DNA of 12,190 bases from a virus (Duplodnaviria > Heunggongvirae > Uroviricota > Caudoviricetes). A program made the translations under genes and the position numbers. Below the pieces are notes generated by a model. The model was not told where the DNA came from and did no database searches. It saw only the letters and a list, made by a program, of their open reading frames with translations. How positions within the stretch are numbered: the first letter of the stretch is position 1; each line of letters begins with the position of its first letter. Where the stretch lies: the IMG/VR virus record IMGVR_UViG_3300029086_000082. One strand, written 5' to 3'. Positions 1-11,256 of the stretch are shown in pieces.

Positions 1-603
1 ATGAATAAAGCCGTATTAAATAACGAACTCATTGCCATAAAAGCGGGAGACATTATCATTTATAATTATGATGGTGAAACGCGTGAATATATTTCTACAT
101 CAACTGAATATCTCGCTGTCGGCGTCGGTATCCCGGCATGTTCTTGTTTGGATGCACCAGGTACACATAAAGCTGGTTATGCAATCTGTCGCTCTGTAGA
201 TTTAAATTCATGGGAATATGTGCCAGATCATCGTGGTGAAATCGTCTATAGCACCGAAACAGGAGAATCGAAAAAAATCACAGCTCCGGGTGATTATCCT
301 GAAAATACAACCACTATCGCCCCGTTAACGCCATACGATAAATGGAATGGTGAGAAATGGGTGACAGATACCGAGGCACAGCACGGCGCAGCAGTAGATG
401 CAGCAGAAGCACTGCGCCAGTCGCTGATTCATACTGCAATGGCCTCCATCAGTCTGATTCAACTGAAATTACAGGCCGGACGGAATCTGACGCAGGCAGA
501 AACAACCCGCCTTAACGCTGTGCTGGATTACATTGACGCGGTGACGGCAACAGATACCAGCACCGCGCCGGATGTCATCTGGCCTGAACTGCCGGAGGCG
601 TAG
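1..603 (+). CDS. tfa: Tail fibre assembly protein (Tfa/gpG/U-like chaperone), plus-orientation copy
   Basis: 200-aa ORF starting at the window's first base; C-terminal ...APDVIWPELPEA motif typical of Tfa proteins. Its 3' end overlaps a second, convergent tfa by 29 bp. Confidence 0.75.
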   Translation: MNKAVLNNELIAIKAGDIIIYNYDGETREYISTSTEYLAVGVGIPACSCLDAPGTHKAGYAICRSVDLNSWEYVPDHRGEIVYSTETGESKKITAPGDYPENTTTIAPLTPYDKWNGEKWVTDTEAQHGAAVDAAEALRQSLIHTAMASISLIQLKLQAGRNLTQAETTRLNAVLDYIDAVTATDTSTAPDVIWPELPEA

Positions 604-1018
604 GCCATTCAATATCTGGCGCACCGGAAGTATCGATCAGCTCCAGTGCGTCCAGATAATCCAGCCACAAATTATATTGCGCCAGTTCATCATCTTTCAG
701 ACGACCAATAGCGGCTTTACCGGGCCATTGCTTACTGTTCATGTATTCGTTGGCCTGGTTAATTAGTAGCTGTCTTTCTGATTCAGTAATTTCAATAAGC
801 TCTTCATGCGTGGGTGGAGGAATATCTGCCCACGCAGGCATCCCATCATCTCCGGCAATACGGATTTTTCCTTGTGGCGGTTCAGCCATAAACTCACTGA
901 TAATATTTTGATTCACCTCCTTTGCATCTGATAAATCCCATCCCTCTGATTTATATTTATCAATCATATCCACAGGGAAAAAAGCATTATTCCTTGCGCT
1001 ATAAACATATTCGTTCAT
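575..1018 (-). CDS. tfa: Tail fibre assembly protein, alternative copy in inverted orientation
   Basis: Minus-strand ORF with Tfa-like N-terminus (MNEYVYSARNNAFFP...) and C-terminal APDIEWPTPP motif. ATG at 1018-1016 is preceded by AGGGTGA; the ORF track's longer start at 1027 is a GTG. It sits 11 nt downstream of the minus-strand fibre C-terminal ORF. Confidence 0.75.
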   Translation of the reverse strand: MNEYVYSARNNAFFPVDMIDKYKSEGWDLSDAKEVNQNIISEFMAEPPQGKIRIAGDDGMPAWADIPPPTHEELIEITESERQLLINQANEYMNSKQWPGKAAIGRLKDDELAQYNLWLDYLDALELIDTSGAPDIEWPTPPAVQAR

Positions 1019-1038
1019 ATAAATCACCCTGAATAAAA

Positions 1039-1424
1039 TTACTCACCAACAGCCCACCAACTGTAATTCATCGATACTGTGGAACTGGTTGATGCAGTTC
1101 TGTAAGCGGAATTAAAACCGGTTAATGTTGGGCCTTCTGCGGTCATCACGAATCCCCGCCCAGCACCTAAAGGCGCACCACCATCACCAGAATGAGTAAG
1201 CATGGCGCAGTCCACTTTTTTAGGAAAAGGGATGCTGAATGTAATTCTCATTGTTTGCGTCGATAATGTCGGCGTAACCGCACCACGACCATATTGCAGG
1301 ATTTTCCCGTTGGGTAATTTCATCCATCCATCACCACTGGCAAAAGAGGCCATGTCCGGTATCTGATTTTCCCCTGTCCCCACATCCCGTTTTGCCGCTT
1401 CTCCCAAACCAACGTTTATGAAAA
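1039..1424 (-). CDS. Alternative tail-fibre C-terminal (receptor-binding) variable domain, promoterless; expressed only after inversion fuses it to the constant fibre 5' part
   Basis: Minus-strand ORF, Gly/Ser/Thr-rich (..HSGDGGAPLGAGRGF..), directly upstream of a tfa on the same strand. The ORF reads through the crossover site (residues IFINVGLGE), so the N-terminal MMPVSHYLC of the track ORF is probably read-through, not a real start. Confidence 0.6.
1399..1424. repeat. Invertase crossover site (hix/gix/pix-like), right boundary of the invertible segment
   Basis: TTCTCCCAAACC-AA-CGTTTATGAAAA: two imperfect 12-bp inverted half-sites around a central AA dinucleotide with the AAACC..GGTTT-type core, 55 bp upstream of the invertase start. 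Confidence 0.6.
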
Positions 1425-1479
1425 TGCAGAGATAATGGCTAACTGGCATCATCCCCGGTTTTTATTCAGGGGGTTGATC

Positions 1480-2046
1480 ATGCTAATTGGCTATGTACGC
1501 GTGTCAACAAATGACCAGAACACCGATTTGCAACGTAATGCACTGAACTGCGCGGGATGTGAGCGGATTTTTGAGGACAAAATCAGTGGCACTAAGTCCG
1601 ACAGACCGGGGCTTAAAAAACTGCTCAGGACACTATCGGCAGGTGACACACTGGTTGTCTGGAAGCTGGACAGGTTGGGGCGCAGTATGCGGCATCTTGT
1701 TACGCTGATAGAAGAGTTGCGCCAGCGCGGCGTGAATTTCCGAAGCCTGACTGACAGTATTGATACCAGTACCCCAATGGGCCGTTTCTTTTTTCATGTC
1801 ATGGGTGCCCTGGCTGAAATGGAACGCGAACTGATAGTTGAACGTACCAGGGCAGGGCTGGCTGCAGCTCGTGCTAAAGGCAGAGTAGGTGGACGCCGTC
1901 CTAAGTTGACCACCGAACAGTGGGCACAGATTGGGCGTTTACTTGAGGCCGGAGAATCAAGACAGCGTATTGCACTGATTTTTGATGTAGGCGTTTCTAC
2001 TATTTATAGAAAATTTCCGGCAAATAAGAGCAATGAATCTCCCTGA
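1480..2046 (+). CDS. Site-specific DNA invertase, serine recombinase of the Gin/Pin/Hin/Cin family
   Basis: Starts MLIGYVRVSTNDQ (catalytic Ser motif) and has the conserved core VVWKLDRLGRSMRHL...SLTDSIDTSTPMGRFFFHVMGALAEMERELIVERT plus a C-terminal HTH (IALIFDVGVSTIYRKF). AGGGGG lies upstream of the ATG at 1480; the track start at 1435 adds 15 non-conserved residues. Confidence 0.9.
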   Translation: MLIGYVRVSTNDQNTDLQRNALNCAGCERIFEDKISGTKSDRPGLKKLLRTLSAGDTLVVWKLDRLGRSMRHLVTLIEELRQRGVNFRSLTDSIDTSTPMGRFFFHVMGALAEMERELIVERTRAGLAAARAKGRVGGRRPKLTTEQWAQIGRLLEAGESRQRIALIFDVGVSTIYRKFPANKSNESP

Positions 2047-2094
2047 ATCAGCATTATTTTGATTATCCCTGCAAGCAGACAAATACCGTCATTT

Positions 2095-2112
2095 TGTGTG
2101 AATAACGGTACA
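2095..2112 (+). promoter_or_regulatory. Candidate Ogr-dependent late-promoter activator site (TGT-N12-ACA) for the FI operon
   Basis: TGTgtgaataacggtACA is the only TGT-N12-ACA in the 143-bp gap, centred about 86 bp upstream of the FI ATG, consistent with an activator site near -55 of a P2-type late promoter. Confidence 0.5.
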
Positions 2113-2188
2113 ACTGCGCTTAGCTGTTTGTCAGGCACAATCACTTCAACATAGGGCGAAGCCTAATCCAATCAGGAGGTTCGCCACT

Positions 2189-3361
2189 ATGGCTCAGGAT
2201 TACCACCACGGGGTGCGCGTTGTTGAAGTCAACGAAGGCACCCGATCCATTACCACGGTGAGCACCGCCATCGTGGGTATGGTCTGCACGGGCGATGATG
2301 CCGATGCAAAAATGTTTCCTCTTAATAAACCCGTGCTGATCACTGATGTGCTGACTGCCAGCGGTAAAGCGGGTGAGTCCGGCACGTTGGCCAGTTCGCT
2401 GGATGCCATTTCTGACCAGGCAAAACCCGTGACCGTTGTTGTGCGTGTGCCGCAGGGTGAAACGGAAGAAGAAACCACGACCAATATCATCGGCGCAGTG
2501 ACCGCTGAAGGTAAAAAAACTGGCATGAAAGCCCTGTTATCTGCACAGGCACAGCTCGGCGTTAAACCGCGCATTCTTGGCGTGCCAGGTCACGATAACA
2601 AAGCCGTTGCTACTGAGTTGCTGAGTGTGGCGCAAAGCCTGCGTGGGTTTGCCTACCTGTCAGCATATGGCTGCAAGACGGTACAGGAGGCGATCACTTA
2701 CCGTGAAAACTTCAGCCAGCGCGAAGGAATGCTGATCTGGCCTGACTTTACTGGCTGGGACACGGTGCTGAATGCCGAAGCAACGGCTTATGCCACCGCC
2801 CGTGCACTTGGTCTGCGCGCCAAAATTGACGAGCAGACCGGATGGCACAAAAGCCTGTCCAACGTGGGCGTGAACGGTGTCACCGGAATTTCTGCTGATG
2901 TGTTCTGGGATCTGCAGGACCCGGCAACCGATGCAGGTCTGCTGAACCAGAACGACGTCACCACGCTTGTGCGTAAAGACGGTTTCCGCTTCTGGGGTTC
3001 CCGCAGCCTGAGTGATGACCCGCTCTTTGCCTTCGAAAACTACACCCGCACGGCGCAGGTGCTCATGGACACGATGGCAGAAGCACACATGTGGGCGGTG
3101 GATAAACCGCTTAACCCGTCGCTGGCCCGCGACATTATCGAAGGTATCCGCGCCAAAATACGCAGCCTGGTCAGTCAGGGCTATCTCATTGGTGGTGATT
3201 GCTGGCTGGATGAGTCGGTGAACGACAAAGACACGTTGAAAGCCGGAAAACTCACCATCGACTATGACTACACGCCAGTGCCGCCACTTGAAAATCTGAT
3301 GCTGCGCCAGCGCATCACCGATCAGTACCTGGTGAATTTTGCCAGCCAGGTCAGCGCGTAA
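2189..3361 (+). CDS. FI: Contractile tail sheath protein (P2 gpFI homologue)
   Basis: 390 aa with P2 FI-like motifs ([19 protein letters not shown]..., ...[22 protein letters not shown]...); AGGAGG 7 nt upstream of the ATG. Confidence 0.95.
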
Positions 3362-3370
3362 GGGGACAAC

Positions 3371-3886
3371 ATGGCTTTACCACGCAAATTAAAACATCTG
3401 AACCTGTTTAACGACGGGAACAACTGGCAGGGGATCGTAGAGTCGCTGACGCTGCCGAAATTCACCCGCAAATATGAGAAGTATCGCGGCGGCGGAATGC
3501 CGGGGGCGGTGGATGTGGATCTGGGGCTTGATGACAGTGCTCTGGACACAGAATTTTCCATTGGTGGTACTGAACTGCTGCTGTTTAAGCAGATGGGCAA
3601 AGCCACTGTGGATGGCATCCAGTTGCGCTTTACCGGCTCTATCCAGCGTGACGATACCGGGGAAGTGCAGGCTGTGGAGCTTGTGGTGCGTGGACGTCAC
3701 AAAGAAGTGGATTCCGGCGAGTGGAAGACGGGCGAAAGCAACACCACCAAAGTGACCAGTACCAACAGCTACGCGAAGCTGACTATTAATGGTGAGGTGC
3801 TCTATGAAGTGGACCTTATCAACATGGTGGAAATTGTGGACGGTGTGGACCTGATGGAAGCGCACCGCAACGCCCTCGGCCTCTGA
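3371..3886 (+). CDS. FII: Tail tube protein (P2 gpFII homologue)
   Basis: 171 aa beginning MALPRKLKHLNLFNDG..., immediately downstream of FI; P2 FII-like length and sequence. Confidence 0.95.
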   Translation: MALPRKLKHLNLFNDGNNWQGIVESLTLPKFTRKYEKYRGGGMPGAVDVDLGLDDSALDTEFSIGGTELLLFKQMGKATVDGIQLRFTGSIQRDDTGEVQAVELVVRGRHKEVDSGEWKTGESNTTKVTSTNSYAKLTINGEVLYEVDLINMVEIVDGVDLMEAHRNALGL

Positions 3887-3897
3887 TGTATCTGAAC

Positions 3898-3915
3898 GGC
3901 GCGGAATGCCGCGCC
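3898..3915 (+). other. GC-rich hairpin between FII and E (possible intra-operon attenuator or RNA-stability element)
   Basis: GGCGCGG-aatg-CCGCGCC, a perfect 7-bp G/C stem with a 4-nt loop; no U-tract follows on the plus strand. Confidence 0.3.
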
Positions 3916-3940
3916 AGAACCCAATTTACAGGACAGCAAA

Positions 3941-4243
3941 ATGAGCGATAAGCAGACTGAAAAGACCATTCAACTGGATACCCCCATCATGCGTGGTAAA
4001 ACTGAAATCACCGAAATTGTGCTGCGTAAACCGCAGTCCGGTGCGCTGCGCGGTACACGCCTGCAGGCCATTATGGATATGGATGTGAACGCGATGATGA
4101 CCGTGATCCCCCGCATTTCCAGTCCGGCACTGACTGCACAGGAAATTGCAGAGATGGACCCGGCAGATCTCACTGCCATGTCGGTTGAGGTTGTCACTTT
4201 TTTGTTGAAGAAGTCGGTGCTTGCCGGTTTACCGACAGCCTGA
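3941..4243 (+). CDS. E: Tail assembly chaperone (P2 gpE homologue)
   Basis: 100-aa ORF between the tail tube and tape-measure genes; contains a slippery heptamer near its 3' end. Confidence 0.9.
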   Translation: MSDKQTEKTIQLDTPIMRGKTEITEIVLRKPQSGALRGTRLQAIMDMDVNAMMTVIPRISSPALTAQEIAEMDPADLTAMSVEVVTFLLKKSVLAGLPTA

Positions 4244-4377
4244 CGGTTGACGATCTGGTGGCAGATATCGCCACCATTTTTCACTGGCCGCCATCCGTTA
4301 CAGACGTTATGCCGCTGACCGAAGTGCTGGAATGGCGGTATAAAGCAATTCAGAGAAGCGGGGCCAACGATGAGTGA
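3941..4377 (+). CDS. E+E': gpE+E' fusion chaperone made by programmed -1 ribosomal frameshift (slip at 4198-4204)
   Basis: Heptamer T-TTT-TTG at 4198-4204 in the E frame. The -1 frame stays open from there to TGA at 4375-4377 (...FHWPPSVTDVMPLTEVLEWRYKAIQRSGANDE), overlapping the T start; analogous to P2 E/E' and lambda G/GT. Confidence 0.7.
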
Positions 4378-7300
4378 TAATAACCTGCGCCTGCAGGTCA
4401 TTCTTAATGCGGTTGACAAACTCACCCGCCCATTCCGTGCTGCACAGGCCAGCTCGAAAGAGCTGGCTGGCGCAATCAGAAACTCCCGTGACGCATTAAA
4501 GCAACTCAATCAGGCGGGTAACAGCCTGGAAAAATTTCGCAAGCTGCAGGCCGATAACAAGAAGTTAGGCGACAGGCTGAACTATGCCAGACAGAAGGCC
4601 AATTTGCTTAGCTCTGAGCTGGAGGCGATGGAACAACCATCACAACGGCACCTTGTGGCTTTAGGTCGGCAAACGCTGGCAGTCCAACGCCTGGAAGAAC
4701 AACAAAAATATTTGCAGAAGCAAACGGCGCTTGTGCGTGCAGAACTGTACCGGGCGGGAATTTCTGCGAAAGACGATGCGGGAGCAACCGCCCGTTTAGC
4801 CCGTGAAACATCACGTTATAACCAGGAACTTTCGAAACAGGAGACGCGGCTGAAGCGACTGGGGGAAGCTCAGCGCAGGATGAATGCAGCGCGTGCCAGT
4901 TATGCCCGTTCGCTGGAGGTGCGTGATCGTATTGCAGGTGCCGGAGCCACTACCACGGCTGCAGGGCTGGCAATGGGCGCGCCAGTGATGGCGGCAGTAA
5001 AAAGCTATACCAGCATGGAAGATGCCATGAAAGGTGTGGCAAAGCAGGTCAATGGTCTGCGTGACGATAATGGCAACCGCACTGCACGTTTTTATGAAAT
5101 GCAGGATGCCATCAAGGCTGCCAGCGAACAGTTGCCGATGGAAAACGGTACGGTGGACTTCGCTGCACTGGTTGAAGGTGGTGCGCGTATGAACGTCGCA
5201 AACCCTGACGACAGCTGGGAAGACCAGAAACGTGACCTGCTGGCCTTCGCCAGTACGGCGGCAAAGGCGGCAACAGCCTTTGAGCTGCCAGCGGATGAAC
5301 TGTCAGAAAGTCTGGGGAAAATCGCCCAGCTCTACAAAATCCCTACCCGCAATATTGAACAGCTCGGCGATGCGCTGAACTATCTGGATGATAACGCCAT
5401 GTCGAAAGGGGCAGACATCATTGATGTGATGCAACGTCTGGGCGGTGTGGCTGACCGTCTGGATTATCGTAAAGCGGCGGCGCTGGGTTCCACCTTCCTG
5501 ACACTGGGCGCTGCGCCAGAGGTTGCAGCCAGTGCAGCAAACGCGATGGTGCGTGAATTGTCCATTGCCACCATGCAAAGCAAGAGTTTCTTTGAAGGGA
5601 TGAATCTGCTGAAACTCAATCCTGAAGTGATTGAAAAGCAGATGACGAAGGATGCGATGGGAACTATCCAGCGTGTGCTGGAGAAGGTGAACGCACTGCC
5701 GCAGGACAAGCGTCTGTCTGCCATGACCATGTTGTTTGGTAAAGAGTTTGGCGATGACGCGGCGAAACTGGCAAACAACCTGCCGGAACTACAGCGCCAG
5801 CTAAAACTGACTGCGGGCAATGATGCGCTCGGTTCCATGCAGAAAGAATCCGACATCAACAAAGACTCACTTTCTGCGCAGTGGTTGCTGGTCAAAACCG
5901 GAGCGCAGAACACCTTCAGCAGCCTGGGCGAAACGCTGCGCCAGCCGCTGATGGATATTCTGTACACGGTGAAAAGCATTACGGGGGCGTTGCGCCGCTG
6001 GGTGGAAGCTAACCCAGAACTGACAGGCACACTGATGAAAGTAGCGGCTGTTGTGGCTGCGGTTACCGTAGGCCTCGGCACCTTAGCGGTGGCGCTGGCT
6101 GCAGTGCTGGGGCCGCTGGCAGTGATCCGTCTGGGATTCTCTGTGCTGGGTATCAAAACGTTACCTTCCGTTACGGCAGCAGTAACTCGAACCAGCAGCG
6201 CGTTGTCCTGGCTGGCTGGCGCACCACTGGCACTGCTGCGACGCGGGCTTGCTTCATCGGGCAACGCCGCAGGCTTACTTACTGCTCCGTTGTCGTCTTT
6301 GCGCCGCACGGCATCACTGACGGGAAATGTCCTGAAAACTGTAGCAGGTGCGCCGGTTGCACTGTTGCGGTCTGGATTATCCGGTTTACGTGCGGTTGCT
6401 GTGATGTTTATGAATCCACTGGCAGCACTACGCGACGGGCTGGCTGCCGCAGGCACGGTGCTGCGAGTACTGGCATCCGGTCCGCTGGCGATGTTGCGCG
6501 TTGCCCTGTATGCCGTATCTGGTCTGTTAGGTGCTCTGCTTAGTCCGATAGGTCTTGTGGTTACTGCACTGGCGGGTGTGGCACTGGTTGTCTGGAAATA
6601 CTGGCAACCCATCACCGCATTTCTCGGTGGCGTGGTGGAAGGATTCAAAGCGGCGGCAGGTCCCATCAGTGCAGCGTTCGAACCGCTTAAGCCTGTGTTC
6701 CAGTGGATTGGCGACAAAGTGCAGGCGCTGTGGGGCTGGTTTACTGATCTGCTGACGCCCGTTAAGTCGACCTCTGCCGAACTGCAGAGCGCAGCGGCAA
6801 TGGGGCGACGATTCGGGGAGGTACTGGTGGAAGGGCTGAATATGGTTATGCATCCGCTGGACTCCCTGAAATCTGGCGTTTCCTGGTTGCTGGATAAACT
6901 CGGCATTGTCAGTAAAGAGGCTGCAAAGGCGAAACTGCCGGAAAGCGTGACGCGTCAGCAACCTGCGACGGTGAATGCAGACGGTAAAGTGATGATGCCA
7001 TCGGGTGGTTTTCCGTCATGGGGATATGGCTTTGCGGGGATGTATGACAGCGGCGGCTATATCCCGCGCGGGCAGTTTGGCATCGTCGGTGAAAACGGGC
7101 CAGAAATTGTTAACGGCCCGGCAAACGTGACCAGCCGGAGAAATACAGCTGCACTGGCTGCCGTTGTCGCCGGAATGATGGGTGTTGCTGCCGCGCCAGC
7201 AGAGCTTCCACCGTTGCATCCTTTGGCGCTTCCCGCGAAAGGCGGTGAAGCGATGGTGAGTCGTGCAGCTACTGTGCCGCCCATTTACCGGATTGAAGCA

Positions 7301-7447
7301 CCGACGCAGATCATCATTCAGACGCAGCCAGGACAAAGTGCGCAGGATATTGCGCGGGAGGTGGCACGCCAGCTTGATGAACGTGAACGCAGGCTGAAGG
7401 CAAAAGCCAGGAGTAACTACAGCGATCAGGGGGGATACGACGCATGA
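4370..7447 (+). CDS. T: Tail tape-measure protein (P2 gpT homologue)
   Basis: 1025 aa, between the chaperone and U. Coiled-coil-like N-terminal region, a central Ala/Leu-rich repeated hydrophobic region and a Gly-rich C-terminus. Its stop overlaps the U start (ATGA). Confidence 0.95.
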   Translation: MSDNNLRLQVILNAVDKLTRPFRAAQASSKELAGAIRNSRDALKQLNQAGNSLEKFRKLQADNKKLGDRLNYARQKANLLSSELEAMEQPSQRHLVALGRQTLAVQRLEEQQKYLQKQTALVRAELYRAGISAKDDAGATARLARETSRYNQELSKQETRLKRLGEAQRRMNAARASYARSLEVRDRIAGAGATTTAAGLAMGAPVMAAVKSYTSMEDAMKGVAKQVNGLRDDNGNRTARFYEMQDAIKAASEQLPMENGTVDFAALVEGGARMNVANPDDSWEDQKRDLLAFASTAAKAATAFELPADELSESLGKIAQLYKIPTRNIEQLGDALNYLDDNAMSKGADIIDVMQRLGGVADRLDYRKAAALGSTFLTLGAAPEVAASAANAMVRELSIATMQSKSFFEGMNLLKLNPEVIEKQMTKDAMGTIQRVLEKVNALPQDKRLSAMTMLFGKEFGDDAAKLANNLPELQRQLKLTAGNDALGSMQKESDINKDSLSAQWLLVKTGAQNTFSSLGETLRQPLMDILYTVKSITGALRRWVEANPELTGTLMKVAAVVAAVTVGLGTLAVALAAVLGPLAVIRLGFSVLGIKTLPSVTAAVTRTSSALSWLAGAPLALLRRGLASSGNAAGLLTAPLSSLRRTASLTGNVLKTVAGAPVALLRSGLSGLRAVAVMFMNPLAALRDGLAAAGTVLRVLASGPLAMLRVALYAVSGLLGALLSPIGLVVTALAGVALVVWKYWQPITAFLGGVVEGFKAAAGPISAAFEPLKPVFQWIGDKVQALWGWFTDLLTPVKSTSAELQSAAAMGRRFGEVLVEGLNMVMHPLDSLKSGVSWLLDKLGIVSKEAAKAKLPESVTRQQPATVNADGKVMMPSGGFPSWGYGFAGMYDSGGYIPRGQFGIVGENGPEIVNGPANVTSRRNTAALAAVVAGMMGVAAAPAELPPLHPLALPAKGGEAMVSRAATVPPIYRIEAPTQIIIQTQPGQSAQDIAREVARQLDERERRLKAKARSNYSDQGGYDA

Positions 7448-7929
7448 TGATGGTGCTGGGATTGTACGTGTTTATGCTGCGCACCGTTCCGTATCAGGAA
7501 CTGCAGTATCAACGCAGCTGGCGACATGCGGCAAACAGCCGGGTAAACCGACGTCCGTCCACGCAGTTTCTGGGACCGGACAACGACATGCTGACGCTTT
7601 CTGGTGTTCTTATGCCGGAGATAACGGGCGGCAGGCTGTCGTTGCTGGCTCTGGAGCAGATGGCAGAACAGGGAAAAGCATGGCCCCTGATTGAAGGCAG
7701 CGGCACGATTTACGGCATGTATGTGATTGAGGGACTGAATCTGACTAAAACGGAGTTTTTCCGCGACGGTATGCCGCGCCGGATTGAGTTCACCCTGTCG
7801 CTCAAACGGGTGGATGAATCCCTGTCCGATATGTTCGGTGATCTCAGTGCGCAGCTGAATAATCTGCAGGACACGGCAACGCCTGCCTTAAGCGATATCA
7901 GTAAAACGGTGGGAGGGCTGCTGTCGTGA
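7444..7929 (+). CDS. U: Tail protein (P2 gpU homologue)
   Basis: 161 aa, translationally coupled to T (ATGA) and to D (GTGA); position and size match P2 gpU. Confidence 0.9.
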   Translation: MMMVLGLYVFMLRTVPYQELQYQRSWRHAANSRVNRRPSTQFLGPDNDMLTLSGVLMPEITGGRLSLLALEQMAEQGKAWPLIEGSGTIYGMYVIEGLNLTKTEFFRDGMPRRIEFTLSLKRVDESLSDMFGDLSAQLNNLQDTATPALSDISKTVGGLLS

Positions 7930-9026
7930 ATTTCAGCTCTGAACTGCTTAACAAAGGCAACAAAACTCCCGCATTCAGCATCAGTATTGAGGACAGGGAT
8001 ATCACTACTGTGCTGGATAACCGCCTGATGAGTCTGACGCTGACGGACAATCGGGGCTTTGAAGCGGACCAGCTTGATCTGGAGCTGGACGACGCCGACG
8101 GAAAAATTGTGCTGCCGCGCCGTGGTGCGGTCATCACGCTGGCGCTGGGCTGGAAGGGGCAGCCGCTTTTCCCGAAAGGGGCATTCACGGTGGACGAGAT
8201 TGAACACACCGGCGCACCGGATCGCCTGACTATCCGGGCGCGAAGTGCTGATTTTAGGGAAACGCTGAATACCCGCCGTGAAAAATCGTGGCACAAGACC
8301 ACTGTCGGGGAAGTGGTGAAGGAAATAGCCGCGCGTCATAAGCTGAAGATGGCACTGGGTAAAGACCTGTCGGATAAGCCCGTGGAGCATATAGACCAGA
8401 CTAATGAGAGTGACGGCAGTTTTCTGATGCGGCTGGCGCGCCAGTACGGTGCCATCGCGTCGGTGAAAAATGGCAATCTGTTATTCATCCGGCAGGGACA
8501 GGGCAAAAGCGCCAGCGGTAAACCACTGCCGGTGATCTCAATCACACGTAAGGACGGCGACAGTCACCGCTTTACCCTGGCAGATCGCGGAGCCTACACG
8601 GGCGTAATTGCCAGTTGGTTGCATACCCGCGAACCCGCGAAGAAAGAAAGCACCACGGTGAAGCGTAAGCGCAGGACTAAGAAGCAGAAGAAAGAGCCGG
8701 AAGCGAAGCAGGGCGATTACCTGGTGGGTACGGATGAAAACGTGCTGGTACTTAATCGCACTTATGCCAACCGGAGCAACGCCGAACGGGCAGCGAAAAT
8801 GCAGTGGGAACGCCTGCAACGCGGCGTTGCATCATTCTCGCTACAACTGGCGGAAGGGCGGGCAGATCTCTACACAGAAATGCCTGTGAAGGTCAGTGGC
8901 TTTAAACAGCCGATAGATGATGCGGAATGGACCATTACGACTCTGACGCATACCGTCAGCCCCGATAACGGTTTTACAACCAGTCTGGAGCTTGAAGTGA
9001 GGATTGATGATTTCGAAATGGAATGA
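7926..9026 (+). CDS. D: Tail protein / late control protein D (P2 gpD homologue)
   Basis: 366 aa with a GTG start overlapping the U stop; GPD-family-like sequence (..LTLTDNRGFEADQLDLELDD..); last gene of the tail operon before ogr. Confidence 0.9.
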   Translation: MNFSSELLNKGNKTPAFSISIEDRDITTVLDNRLMSLTLTDNRGFEADQLDLELDDADGKIVLPRRGAVITLALGWKGQPLFPKGAFTVDEIEHTGAPDRLTIRARSADFRETLNTRREKSWHKTTVGEVVKEIAARHKLKMALGKDLSDKPVEHIDQTNESDGSFLMRLARQYGAIASVKNGNLLFIRQGQGKSASGKPLPVISITRKDGDSHRFTLADRGAYTGVIASWLHTREPAKKESTTVKRKRRTKKQKKEPEAKQGDYLVGTDENVLVLNRTYANRSNAERAAKMQWERLQRGVASFSLQLAEGRADLYTEMPVKVSGFKQPIDDAEWTITTLTHTVSPDNGFTTSLELEVRIDDFEME

Positions 9027-9116
9027 TTCTTCGCAATGGAGAACTTTTAAGTTTGCAAAATGGAATAATGCGGTATCATTATTGTGAATTTAGCAAAAAT
9101 GGGGAGAGCTCGAAAA

Positions 9117-9335
9117 ATGATGATTTGCCCACTGTGTGGAAGTGCCGCCCATACTCGCAGCAGTTTTCAGGTATCTTCATTGACCAAAGAGCGTTACAAC
9201 CAGTGCCAGAACATTAACTGCAGCCATACTTTTGTTACCCATGAAACTTTTGTTCGTTCGATTGCAACGCCAAAAGAGTCAAATCCGGTTCAGCCGCATC
9301 CAATGAAATCAGGACAGGTGGCGCTCTCTCTTTGA
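9117..9335 (+). CDS. ogr: Ogr-type zinc-finger late-gene transcriptional activator
   Basis: 72 aa from ATG 9117 (GGGGAGAG 9 nt upstream). C-X2-C...C-X4-C zinc-finger spacing (CPLCGSAAH...CQNINCSHTF) as in P2 Ogr. The track's upstream start at 9084 lacks a Shine-Dalgarno sequence and adds non-conserved residues. Confidence 0.9.
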   Translation: MMICPLCGSAAHTRSSFQVSSLTKERYNQCQNINCSHTFVTHETFVRSIATPKESNPVQPHPMKSGQVALSL

Positions 9336-9412
9336 CGCTGCCGCCAATTTGTCGCCATCATTAAAAAATAGTGCTTCTAACATCATGATTTTAAAAGGCA
9401 TAAATTTCAGGC

Positions 9413-9458
9413 AACAAAAAACCCATCAACCTTGAACCGAAATGGCGGGGTTGATGGG
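9413..9458 (-). terminator. Candidate rho-independent terminator downstream of ybjL
   Basis: 10-bp stem CCCATCAACC / GGTTGATGGG (9422-9431 / 9449-9458) followed on the minus strand by TTTTTTGTT. It lies about 115 nt past the ybjL stop and the loop is large (17 nt), so confidence is moderate. Confidence 0.45.
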
Positions 9459-9570
9459 CTCCACAAAATGGGGACATCAAAGAAAAGCAGTGGCACTAAT
9501 TAAGACTGATGCCCTGCGGAAAAGTTCTGCGGTTGTGCAAAAAAATTTCATTTTCAGGGCAACTTCAGTT

Positions 9571-11256
9571 TTATCCTAATCCTGGCCATACCATGACGAT
9601 GATTGTCCCTGCCAGCGTCAGCAGGACGTTGGCGATTGCGTAGGTGCCCGCGTAGCCCAGCGCAGGGATGTTACTGCGAGCTGTATCACTGATGATCTCC
9701 ATTGCCGGCGCGCAGGTGCGTGCGCCCATCATTGCGCCGAACAACAGTGCGCGGTTCATTCGCAATACATAAGCACCGAACAAGAAACAGATAACCACGG
9801 GCACAAGACTGACAATTAATCCGGCAATCAACATCTGACCGCCAATCGCGCCCAGGCCGTTATTAATACCGCTACCGGCGCTCAGACCAACGCCTGCCAT
9901 AAACACCATCAAGCCGAACTCTTTCACCATGCTTAATGCACCTTGCGGAATGTAACCGAAGGTCGGGTGGTTAGCACGCATAAAGCCCAGCATAATTCCG
10001 GCGAATAACAACCCGGCAGCGTTCCCCATGCCGAAACTGAATGTGCTGAACTGGAAGGTGATCATCCCGATCATCAGCCCAATAACAAAGAAGGCGCAAA
10101 ATGCCAGCAGGTCAGTGACCTGGCTGTGAATCGAGATAAAGCCGATGCGATCGGCGATGGTTTTTACGCGACGGGCATCACCGCTGACTTGTAAAACGTC
10201 ACCTTTGTTAAGCACGACGTTGTCATCTATCGGCATCTCAATCTGGCTACGAATGACGCGGTTAAGGAAGCAACCGTGATCGGTCAACTTCAGTTGTGCG
10301 AGACGTTTACCTACAGCGTTATGGTTTTTAACGACCACTTCTTCAGTGACGATACGCATGTCGAGAAGGTCACGATCGAAAACTTCTTTACCGTTACGGA
10401 AGCTGGGATCGAGTCGGGCATGGGCGTCGGGATAGCCTACCAACGCTATTTCATCGCCCATTTGTAGCACGGCATCACCGTCTGGATTTGCCAGAATCCC
10501 GTTACGTCGAATACGTTCAATGTAGCAGCCGGTTTGTCGATAAATACCCAGTTCACGCAGATTTTTGCCGTCGGTCCAGGCCACCAGCTCCGGGCCGACG
10601 CGATAGGCGCGGATCACCGGTAAATAAACCTTACGGTTGGCATCAGTGTCCAGGCCACGTTCGCGGGCGATTTGCTGGGCGCTGGTCTGTAAGTCCTGAT
10701 GCTGCAATTTCGGCAAGTAACGCGCACCAACAATCAAACTCACCAGACCGATTAAATAGGTTAAGGCATACCCGAGGCTCAGATTATCCAGTGCCAGTGA
10801 GAGCTGCCTGCTTTCCATGCCGGAATGACGCAGTGTATCGCCAGCACCGACCAGAACCGGTGTCGACGTCATAGAGCCTGCTAACATACCGGCCGTCAGG
10901 CCAATATCCCAGCCAAACAGCTTACCTAACCCTAAGGCGATCACCAGCGCACTGCCAACCATCACCAGTGCTAACATTAGGTAATTTTTCCCATCGCGAA
11001 AAAAAATGGAAAAAAAGTTCGGTCCGGCTTCGACCCCGACGCAGAAAATAAACAGCATAAAGCCAAGATTAAGCGCATCGGTGTTAATGCTGAAATGTTG
11101 TTGGCCTAATAACAGCGATACGACTAAAACGCCAATGGAATTACCCAGTTGGATCGAACCAAGTCGTAACTTTCCGAGACATAGCCCAAGCGCGAGGACC
11201 ACAAATAATAACAGAATGTAATTCCCATTTAACAATTCGGCGACGTTTATATTCAC
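9571..11256 (-). CDS. ybjL: Putative transport protein YbjL (AAE-family transporter with central paired TrkA-C/RCK_C domains)
   Basis: 561 aa, multi-pass membrane protein with a soluble central region; matches E. coli YbjL in length and sequence from memory. GTG start at 11256-11254. Confidence 0.95.

What the first reader, a model, noticed from the sequence alone, without database searches (positions are those of the whole stretch)
1..2046. Mu/P1/e14-type invertible tail-fibre host-range switch attached to a P2-type tail module
The window holds two convergent tail-fibre-assembly genes, a promoterless alternative fibre C-terminus on the minus strand, a crossover site and a Gin/Pin-family invertase, all immediately upstream of P2-type FI. 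Inversion would swap which fibre tip and chaperone pair is expressed, changing receptor specificity. P2 itself carries fixed H and G genes here, so this prophage is a mosaic. The left half of the cassette lies outside the window.
Basis: partly seen in the sequence, partly recalled or inferred. Interest (0 to 1): 0.6.

Follow-up and report, generated by a model that had tools for sequence, protein, structure and literature searches.

The report
Invertible tail-fibre switch, P2-like prophage

Summary
The window carries:
- two convergent tail-fibre-assembly genes, 1-603 (+) and 575-1018 (-);
- a start-less alternative fibre tip, 1039-1398 (-);
- a unique 26-bp crossover site, 1399-1424;
- an intact Gin/Pin-type serine invertase, 1480-2046;
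- then P2-type FI, FII, E, T, U, D and ogr.

The site is 26/26 identical to the experimentally used right site of the e14 P segment. The invertase is 87% identical to PinE and 75% to Mu Gin, and keeps the catalytic serine and the Fis/enhancer-contact residues.

The partner site lies outside the window. In close relatives it sits in inverted orientation inside P2 gene H, about 450-490 nt upstream of base 1. In-silico inversion there gives an in-frame 473-aa fibre, and that exact state occurs in nature. Among 5,426 complete E. coli genomes, 101 are collinear with the as-found orientation and 83 with the inverted one.

P2 itself has H, G and fun(Z) here, with no site and no invertase. The same layout exists in a classified Peduovirus (NC_041848), in Fels-2 and in EPEC P2-like prophages shown to phase-vary. 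Verdict: correct but already known.

One loose end: this cassette allele is 99.9% identical to one in a Mu-like prophage.

The parts
1..603 (+). Tail-fibre assembly chaperone, TfaE-like, 200 aa. It is co-oriented with the upstream fibre gene, so it is the expressed chaperone in the orientation found.
   Evidence: Pfam Caudo_TAP E 2.9e-31. 89% aa identity to e14 TfaE. In relatives it follows gene H with a 1-nt overlap.
575..1018 (-). Second tail-fibre assembly chaperone, TfaP-like, 147 aa. It is silent in this orientation. Its 3' end overlaps that of the first chaperone gene by 29 nt.
   Evidence: Pfam Caudo_TAP E 5.3e-31. 53% aa identity to e14 TfaP. Annotated as 444 nt in relatives.
1039..1398 (-). 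Alternative fibre C-terminal tip, 119 codons plus a stop, gp53-like fold family. It lacks its own N-terminal part. It becomes the 3' end of gene H after inversion.
   Evidence: Pfam Gp53-like_C E 3.1e-13. In-silico inversion in relative L003 gives an in-frame 473-aa H. The same fusion occurs naturally in L004.
1399..1424 (.). Right 26-bp crossover site, TTCTCCCAAACC-AA-CGTTTATGAAAA. The 2-bp core is at 1411-1412. The inner half-site 1399-1410 is inside the invertible segment.
   Evidence: Unique in the window and not expected by chance. 26/26 identical to the e14 right site beside pinE. The window at 1397-1412 matches 15 of the 16 nt of the experimentally defined e14 repeat CCTTCTCCCAAACCAA (PMC12529663). 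Aligns with Mu gixL/gixR.
1480..2046 (+). Serine DNA invertase of the Gin/Pin/Hin/Cin (Din) family, 188 aa, outside the invertible segment.
   Evidence: Resolvase and HTH_7 domains. E 8e-93 to Mu Gin structure 3UJ3. 87% identical to PinE and 75% to Gin. Y5, R7, S9, R42, K46, K47, R50, Q150, R153 and L154 are all retained.
2095..2112 (+). TGT-N12-ACA motif 77-94 nt upstream of FI. This is the likely Ogr-activator site of the P2-type late F promoter, which would mark the boundary between the fibre operon and the tail operon. Inferred only.
   Evidence: Read directly from the sequence. The motif definition comes from general knowledge of P2 late promoters. The alignment to P2 pF is weak.
2189..9335 (+). 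P2-type tail module, given as context: FI sheath 2189-3361, FII tube 3371-3886, E 3941-4243 (E' follows), T 4370-7447, U 7444-7929, D 7926-9026, and ogr, whose ORF is listed from 9084 but is annotated as 219 nt (72 aa) in relatives, ending at 9335.
   Evidence: Pfam hits for each gene. Same gene order as P2 NC_001895.

Best explanation
The window holds the right-hand ~1.41 kb of a ~1.85-1.89 kb invertible tail-fibre cassette, plus its invertase. It sits at the end of the late fibre operon (V-W-J-I-H-tfa) of a P2-like prophage integrated beside rybB/ybjL in E. coli.

Proposed mechanism:
1. The invertase binds as dimers to the 26-bp site at 1399-1424 and to an inverted partner site inside gene H. 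That partner is predicted about 450-490 nt upstream of base 1.
2. By analogy with Gin, Hin and Pin, the two sites are synapsed on a Fis-bound enhancer.
3. Both sites are cut at the 2-bp core (AA/TT). One half of the complex rotates by 180 degrees and the strands are religated.
4. This flips the segment.

In the orientation found, the constant N-terminal ~350 aa of H is joined to a StfE-like 'collar' tip, and the TfaE-like chaperone (1-603) follows. After inversion the same constant part is joined in frame to the gp53-like tip (1398-1039), followed by the TfaP-like chaperone (1018-575).

Virions made from the two states therefore carry different receptor-binding tips, a bet-hedging host-range switch.

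Shown here: the anatomy, family membership of the invertase and the site, the partner site and in-frame fusion in relatives, and both orientations in nature.

Inferred: activity in this very genome, dependence on Fis and an enhancer, and the change of host range.
For: Anatomy and domains.

Invertase:
- Close to Mu Gin (PDB 3UJ3/4M6F, E ~1e-92) and to PinE (87%).
- The catalytic Ser9 is kept, and so are the invertase-specific residues. These correspond to Hin K47, K/R48, K/R51, Q151, R154 and L155, described in PMC3798978 and found in the window protein.

Site:
- Identical to the e14 right site.
- In e14 this site supports inversion by PinE and PinQ experimentally (PMC12529663; PMC4272514).

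Partner site in relatives:
- TTCTCGCATACCTTGGTTTGGGAGAA lies inside H, with the same core dinucleotide in inverted orientation, in relatives including L001-L003, L020 and L022-L024.

Inversion outcome:
- In-silico inversion gives an intact 473-aa H.
- Isolate AF5 (L004) has exactly that state, with breakpoints at the sites.

Population evidence:
- 101 complete E. coli genomes are collinear with the as-found state and 83 with the inverted state. The query design means the opposite state cannot reach 80% coverage.
- Two copies of one Mu-like prophage have 100% identical flanks and a cassette 99.9% identical to each other and to the window's. They differ only by a clean inversion whose breakpoints lie within the 20-nt site overlap.

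Precedent: the same gene order is found in Peduovirus magyaro NC_041848.
Against: - The left site, the first fibre tip and gene H of this genome are not in the window and could not be retrieved.
- No read-level evidence of switching exists for this strain.
- The enhancer could not be demonstrated. The 5' end of the invertase gene shows no excess synonymous conservation against gin or pinE.
- No convincing sigma-70 promoter for the invertase was found.
- The cassette allele in the window matches a Mu-like prophage rather than its own prophage lineage. The upstream context in this genome is therefore not guaranteed to be P2 H.
Confidence: 0.9

Rival explanations
1. Frozen relic. The cassette has the anatomy of a switch but no longer inverts in this genome, for example because the left site or gene H has been lost or disrupted, or because the invertase is not expressed.
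For: Relatives show decay of this kind. There is an IS1 inside H in EC6563. L018 and L019 keep a 100% identical invertase but have lost the site and all fibre genes. Some Mu-like copies have the invertase truncated to 42 aa. No promoter was detected for the invertase.
Against: Within the window everything needed is intact: a full-length invertase with all key residues, a site identical to a proven functional site, and open reading frames for both chaperones and the alternative tip. Din invertases also act in trans between elements (PMC12529663).
Confidence: 0.15
2. Inter-prophage recombinant or assembly chimera. The left 1.4 kb of the window derives from the cassette of a different, Mu-like prophage, joined to the P2-like prophage at or near the crossover site. 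The join could have arisen by invertase-mediated exchange, by homologous recombination, or by mis-assembly across a 192-bp identical stretch. The DNA upstream of the window might then not be P2 gene H.
For: Window 1-1417 is 99.86-99.93% identical to Mu-like prophage cassettes (L009, L011-L014). Window 1474-10361 is 100% identical to P2-like prophages at ybjL (L018, L019), and L021 matches from 1354 on with one mismatch. L020 is the same prophage, yet it has 85 mismatches in 1-1225 and none in 1226-9500. No complete E. coli genome carries the window's combination; the best full-length match to 1-1800 is 95.8%.
Against: Cassette alleles are shuffled widely among P2-like prophages that do have H upstream (L003, L022-L024). 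A simple allele replacement with H intact is therefore at least as likely. The window reads continuously without anomalies. This reading would not change what the element is.
Confidence: 0.2
3. Host-side defence role. The minus-strand ORF 1039-1449 has a 17-codon leader outside the segment fused to whichever tip lies next to the invertase. It would be expressed in the lysogen and block a receptor used by other phages, as reported for StfE2 of e14.
For: The ORF architecture mirrors e14 stfE: window MPVSHYLCIFINVGLGE... against e14 MPFACYFFIFINVGLGE.... PMC12529663 reports that inversion of the e14 P segment yields StfE2, which blocks T2 adsorption. A promoter-like element on the minus strand at 1507-1480 points into this ORF.
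Against: The promoter-like match is built from the invertase start codon and its catalytic-serine codons, and promoter-like hits in the region are not above chance (5 found, 3.9 expected). Nothing here tests expression. This prophage has a full P2 tail module, for which a virion host-range role is the straightforward reading.
Confidence: 0.08

Closest known systems
e14 P segment with PinE (E. coli K-12: stfP-tfaP / tfaE-stfE / pinE)
   Same: The right crossover site is 26/26 identical. The invertase is 87% identical. TfaE is 89% identical and the same length. The convergent tfa genes have the same 29-nt overlap. The out-of-window tip in relatives is StfE-like (60% over 170 aa). The order is the same: fibre, tfa, tfa(-), tip(-), invertase.
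   Different: The second tip is gp53-like, not StfP-like (25% identity). The second chaperone is only 53% identical to TfaP. The cassette is attached to a complete P2-type fibre gene and tail module, not to a decayed lambdoid element.
Phage Mu G segment with Gin (S/U versus S'/U')
   Same: Same logic and layout: a constant fibre N-terminus outside the segment, two tip-plus-chaperone pairs inside in opposite orientation, and the invertase just outside the right site. The invertase is 75% identical. The sites share the TT...AAACC-NN-GGTTT...AA pattern.
   Different: The Mu segment is ~3 kb and its core is GA. The tips and chaperones are unrelated or only distantly related (22-35% identity). The phage backbone is different.
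P2-like phages and prophages that already carry this cassette: Peduovirus magyaro NC_041848, Escherichia phages 500465-1 and pro483, EPEC E2348/69 P2-like prophages, Salmonella Fels-2 (fin)
   Same: NC_041848 has an identical gene order: H, tfa (603 nt), tfa (444 nt, -), tip (-), invertase, FI. 54 phage records match. Phase variation was shown by sequencing in EPEC P2-like prophages (PMC4272514). Fels-2 shows a tail-fibre inversion next to fin (PMC7953296). An invertase is reported as frequent in the Z/fun hotspot (bioRxiv 10.1101/2024.10.15.618418).
   Different: Only allelic differences. NC_041848 matches bases 1-1844 at 90.2% DNA identity (84% of the 2,188-nt query), and the best complete E. 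coli genome is 96.1% identical over 1-2188.
Phage P2 itself (NC_001895)
   Same: FI, FII, E/E', T, U, D and ogr occur in the same order, and the fibre operon ends immediately upstream.
   Different: P2 has fixed H and G, a terminator and fun(Z) between G and FI. It has no Din-type site and no invertase.

Membership tests
Din family of Fis/enhancer-dependent serine DNA invertases (Gin, Cin, Hin, Pin) | Small serine recombinase (~190 aa) with an N-terminal catalytic domain carrying the nucleophilic serine, and a C-terminal helix-turn-helix domain | tested here: met
   Resolvase and HTH_7 domains. 188 aa, with Y5, R7 and S9 identical to Gin and PinE.
Din family of Fis/enhancer-dependent serine DNA invertases (Gin, Cin, Hin, Pin) | Invertase-specific basic helix-B residues (Hin K47, K/R48, K/R51) and Fis-contact residues (Hin Q151, R154, L155), which resolvases lack | tested here: met
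   The window protein has K46, K47, R50, Q150, R153 and L154 (its numbering is Hin minus 1). The criterion comes from PMC3798978.
Din family of Fis/enhancer-dependent serine DNA invertases (Gin, Cin, Hin, Pin) | 26-bp imperfect-dyad recombination site with a 2-bp core, adjacent to the invertase gene | tested here: met
   The site at 1399-1424 is unique in the window, and none of 200 shuffles gave as many matches. It is identical to the e14 site and aligns with gixL/gixR.
Din family of Fis/enhancer-dependent serine DNA invertases (Gin, Cin, Hin, Pin) | A second site in inverted orientation with the same core dinucleotide | not testable with these tools
   It lies outside the window and the source contig could not be retrieved. 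It is present in relatives including L001-L004, L008, L016, L017, L020 and L022-L024, at 423-492 nt upstream of the equivalent of base 1 in those with the window's type of cassette.
Din family of Fis/enhancer-dependent serine DNA invertases (Gin, Cin, Hin, Pin) | Recombinational enhancer with two Fis sites inside the 5' part of the invertase gene | tested here: inconclusive
   The 5' coding DNA aligns with gin and pinE, including a GATTTG...GTAATG stretch at the position of Hin's AT-rich enhancer segments (PMC3798978). Synonymous sites are not more conserved there than elsewhere (p = 0.09-0.5). No validated Fis-site model was available.
Invertible tail-fibre host-range cassettes (Mu G, P1 C, e14 P, p15B Min) | Two alternative fibre C-termini in opposite orientation, each followed by its own assembly chaperone, sharing one constant N-terminal gene part outside the segment | tested here: met
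   One complete tip-plus-chaperone pair and the chaperone of the other pair are in the window. The other tip and the constant part were seen only in relatives.
Invertible tail-fibre host-range cassettes (Mu G, P1 C, e14 P, p15B Min) | Inversion gives an in-frame fusion, and both orientations are found | tested here: met
   Tested in relatives only. The in-silico fusion is 473 aa and the natural inverted state occurs in L004. 101 genomes are collinear with the as-found state and 83 with the inverted state. A clean inversion separates near-identical prophages.
Invertible tail-fibre host-range cassettes (Mu G, P1 C, e14 P, p15B Min) | The two orientations give virions with different host ranges | not testable with these tools
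   This requires plating or adsorption assays with locked orientations.
P2-like phages (Peduoviridae) tail module | FI sheath, FII tube, E/E' chaperones, T tape measure, U, D and Ogr, in that order | tested here: met
   Pfam hits for each gene. The order is the same as in NC_001895. A TTTTTTG slippery run lies at 4198-4204.

The most novel reading that the evidence does not exclude
The window may capture a recent swap of a whole receptor-binding cassette between two unrelated prophages in one cell: a Mu-like defective prophage and this P2-like prophage. The join falls within a 192-nt interval that ends in the crossover site. If the invertase itself catalysed the exchange between sites on different prophages, Din sites would act as portable docking points for moving fibre modules between phage lineages, or for large chromosomal rearrangements, and not only as flip-switch ends.
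Probability: 0.15. Interest if true: 0.4.

Novelty: already known. Interest (0 to 1): 0.12.

Why it matters
The switch lets one prophage release virions with either of two receptor specificities. That matters for predicting host range, for phage therapy and typing, and for correct annotation. Annotation pipelines split or mislabel the fused fibre gene, as in isolate AF5, and short-read assemblies can be hard to close across such repeated, invertible cassettes.

The principle, the enzyme family, the site and this very arrangement in P2-like phages are all documented, so the finding adds one more instance and no new biology.

The only aspect with some open interest is how cassettes move between unrelated prophages.

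Tried and rejected
1. Retrieving the window's own left flank. I used exact-protein look-ups with tfa(+), FI and the 136-aa tip ORF. All returned close relatives, not the source. No complete E. coli genome has the exact combination.

2. Testing for an embedded enhancer. I compared synonymous-codon conservation in invertase codons 1-35 with codons 36-180, against gin and pinE. The difference was not significant, so enhancer presence rests on homology only.

3. Scanning for promoters and terminators in 1-2300. Hit counts were at chance level. No credible invertase promoter was found. The minus-strand hit at 1507-1480 is made of coding-constrained bases.

4. Aligning the invertase-FI spacer to P2 pF. 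Similarity was too weak to transfer the annotated activator site, so only the TGT-N12-ACA motif is noted.

5. Reading the contig ends near the sites in L020 and L021 as evidence of mixed orientation. I rejected this as inconclusive, because the same cassette is repeated in other prophages and could break assemblies by itself.

6. Considering a multi-site shufflon like the three-repeat EPEC P2-like prophage (PMC4272514). The window has one site and the relatives checked have two, so this is a simple two-state switch.
Full report
**What is in the window**

The ORF list and Pfam scan give the following layout:
- A 200-aa tail-fibre assembly protein at 1-603 (+).
- A 147-aa one at 575-1018 (-). 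The two converge and overlap by 29 nt.
- A minus-strand fibre tip of the Gp53-like_C family at 1039-1398.
- A 26-bp site at 1399-1424.
- A serine recombinase with Resolvase and HTH_7 domains at 1480-2046 (+).
- From 2189 onward, P2-type FI, FII, E, T, U, D and ogr.

From about 9400 the DNA is E. coli chromosome (rybB, ybjL, ybjM, grxA), 99.9% identical to many strains. The window is therefore the right end of a P2-like prophage. 696 of 5,426 complete E. coli genomes are collinear with at least 80% of it.

**The site and the enzyme**

The sequence TTCTCCCAAACC-AA-CGTTTATGAAAA is the only match in the window to a Din-type site pattern and is not expected by chance. It is 26/26 identical to the site beside pinE in e14 of E. 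coli K-12, and it aligns with Mu gixL and gixR. The window at 1397-1412 matches 15 of the 16 nt of the e14 repeat CCTTCTCCCAAACCAA, at which PinE and PinQ were shown to invert the P segment (PMC12529663).

The recombinase matches the solved Mu Gin structures at E ~1e-92. It is 87% identical to PinE and 75% to Gin. It keeps the nucleophilic Ser9. It also keeps the residues that distinguish Fis/enhancer-dependent invertases from resolvases, namely the equivalents of Hin K47, K/R48, K/R51, Q151, R154 and L155 (PMC3798978). Its true start is ATG 1480, not ATG 1435.

**The missing left half**

The window contains no inverted copy of the site. Relatives supply it:
- In MB20 (L003), the same integration site and 97.4% identical over the whole window, P2 gene H contains TTCTCGCATACC-TT-GGTTTGGGAGAA. 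It starts 493 nt upstream of the equivalent of window base 1 (window coordinate -492).
- In L020, the same prophage lineage, and in the Mu-like loci, it lies at -447/-448.
- The inner half-sites and the 2-bp core are perfect inverted repeats, while the outer halves differ.

The invertible segment is thus 1,846-1,891 bp, of which 1,411 bp are in the window.

**Does it flip?**

Inverting the segment in silico in L003 fuses the constant ~350 aa of H in frame to the gp53-like tip. This gives a 473-aa protein followed by the TfaP-like chaperone.

That exact state exists in blood isolate AF5 (L004). It has the sites at the breakpoints and an uninterrupted 473-aa ORF, although the automatic annotation splits it.

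I built 3,093-nt queries in which the invertible part makes up 61%, so a genome in the opposite state cannot reach 80% coverage in one collinear place. With these, 101 complete genomes match the as-found state and 83 match the inverted state.

Two copies of one Mu-like prophage (L008 and L011) have 100% identical flanks. Their cassettes are 99.9% identical to each other and to the window's. They differ only by inversion, with breakpoints inside the 20-nt overlap at the sites.

These are population-level demonstrations. No reads are available for this strain.

**Comparison with the known**

P2 proper has H, G, a terminator, fun(Z) and then FI. It has no site and no invertase.

The cassette is nevertheless far from unusual in P2-like phages:
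- A classified species, Peduovirus magyaro NC_041848, has the same gene order.
- 54 phage records match.
- The Z/fun locus is a known variable hotspot in which an invertase with adjacent inverted genes is 'often' seen (bioRxiv 10.1101/2024.10.15.618418).
- Phase variation in P2-like prophages of EPEC E2348/69 and in e14 was measured by sequencing and PCR (PMC4272514).
- Fels-2 shows the same kind of tail-fibre inversion next to fin (PMC7953296).

The nearest named system is e14, ahead of Mu. Its site is identical, PinE is 87% identical and TfaE is 89% identical. The out-of-window tip is StfE-like in relatives (60%). The gp53-like tip, however, is unrelated to StfP.

**Mechanism and confidence**

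The best explanation is a two-state, Din-type host-range switch. Late transcription from the P2 V-operon promoter reads through H into whichever tip and chaperone face it. The other pair has no promoter of its own.

The steps of synapsis on a Fis-bound enhancer, double-strand cleavage at the core and 180-degree subunit rotation are taken from the Hin and Gin literature (PMC3798978). They were not tested here. The enhancer could not be confirmed by a synonymous-site test, and the simple consensus scan gave no convincing sigma-70-type invertase promoter.

I put 0.9 on the identification. I put about 0.75 on the switch being active in this particular genome.

**An unexplained detail**

- Window 1-1417 is 99.86-99.93% identical to the cassette of a Mu-like defective prophage with a gp45-48-type baseplate. 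That prophage lies next to smpB in several of these loci, as in L011 and L013.
- Window 1474-10361 is 100% identical to P2-like prophages at ybjL (L018, L019), and L021 matches from 1354 on with a single mismatch.
- L020 is the same prophage, yet it differs at 85 positions in 1-1225 and at none in 1226-9500.

The allele switch therefore lies in the identical stretch 1226-1417, which ends in the crossover site. No complete genome has this combination.

Three causes fit: homologous recombination, invertase-mediated exchange between prophages, or mis-assembly. The left flank would decide between them. None of these changes what the element is.

**Verdict**

Novelty: already known. Interest is low.

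Noticed in passing
window 1-1417 versus 1226-10361; loci L009, L011-L014, L018-L021: The invertible-segment allele is 99.86-99.93% identical to that of a Mu-like defective prophage. The rest of the window is identical or nearly identical to P2-like prophages whose own cassette (L020) differs at 85 positions in 1-1225. The switch point lies in a 192-nt identical stretch that ends in the crossover site. No complete E. coli genome has this combination.
   Followed up: partly
L008, L010, L011, L014, L015 (Mu-like prophage; next to smpB in L008, L011 and L013): The same cassette is attached to a Mu gp45-48-type baseplate module. Both orientations occur between strains with 100% identical flanks. 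In L010, L011 and L014 the adjacent invertase is truncated to 42 aa, which suggests inversion before the truncation or by an invertase acting in trans.
   Followed up: partly
L018 and L019, junction at window position 1474: Some strains keep a 100% identical invertase and tail module but have lost the crossover site and everything from a portal-gene remnant to just upstream of the invertase start. An AIPR abortive-infection gene lies nearby. The result is an orphan invertase in a deleted prophage.
   Followed up: partly
window 1039-1449 (-) and 1507-1480 (-): The tip ORF extends 17 codons beyond the crossover site to an ATG beside the invertase gene (MPVSHYLCIFINVGLGE...), like e14 stfE. A promoter-like match (TTGACA-16-TAGCAT) points into it but is built from the invertase start and catalytic-serine codons. 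This is reminiscent of StfE2, which is reported to block T2 adsorption (PMC12529663).
   Followed up: no
window 9413-9491 (-) and about 9400: The RybB sRNA gene scores 105 bits against Rfam. Genomes without the prophage match the window only from about 9400 onward, so the prophage end abuts the 3' end of rybB. 1,110 of 5,426 complete E. coli genomes have an ogr-type prophage end at this spot.
   Followed up: partly
window 4198-4204: A TTTTTTG run lies near the end of gene E. The downstream GpE-family frame is annotated in relatives at the equivalent of window 4258-4377. This fits the P2 E/E' -1 frameshift.
   Followed up: no
window 2095-2112: A TGT-N12-ACA motif lies 77-94 nt upstream of FI. 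It is the expected form of an Ogr/Delta activator site for the late F promoter, but its similarity to P2 pF is weak.
   Followed up: partly
L002 4112-4809 and 8371-8886; L004 1053-2474: The closest complete relative, EC6563, has an IS1 inside fibre gene H and an internal stop in the tube gene. In isolate AF5 the intact 473-aa fused fibre gene is annotated as a truncated pseudogene plus a separate 136-aa gene.
   Followed up: no
L016 and L017 (fibre region, about 3458-6263 in each): Prophages with an identical FI protein carry quite different cassettes between the same two sites. One example is a glycine-rich tip with 139- and 87-aa partners. The sites therefore bracket a hypervariable receptor-binding module.
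   Followed up: no
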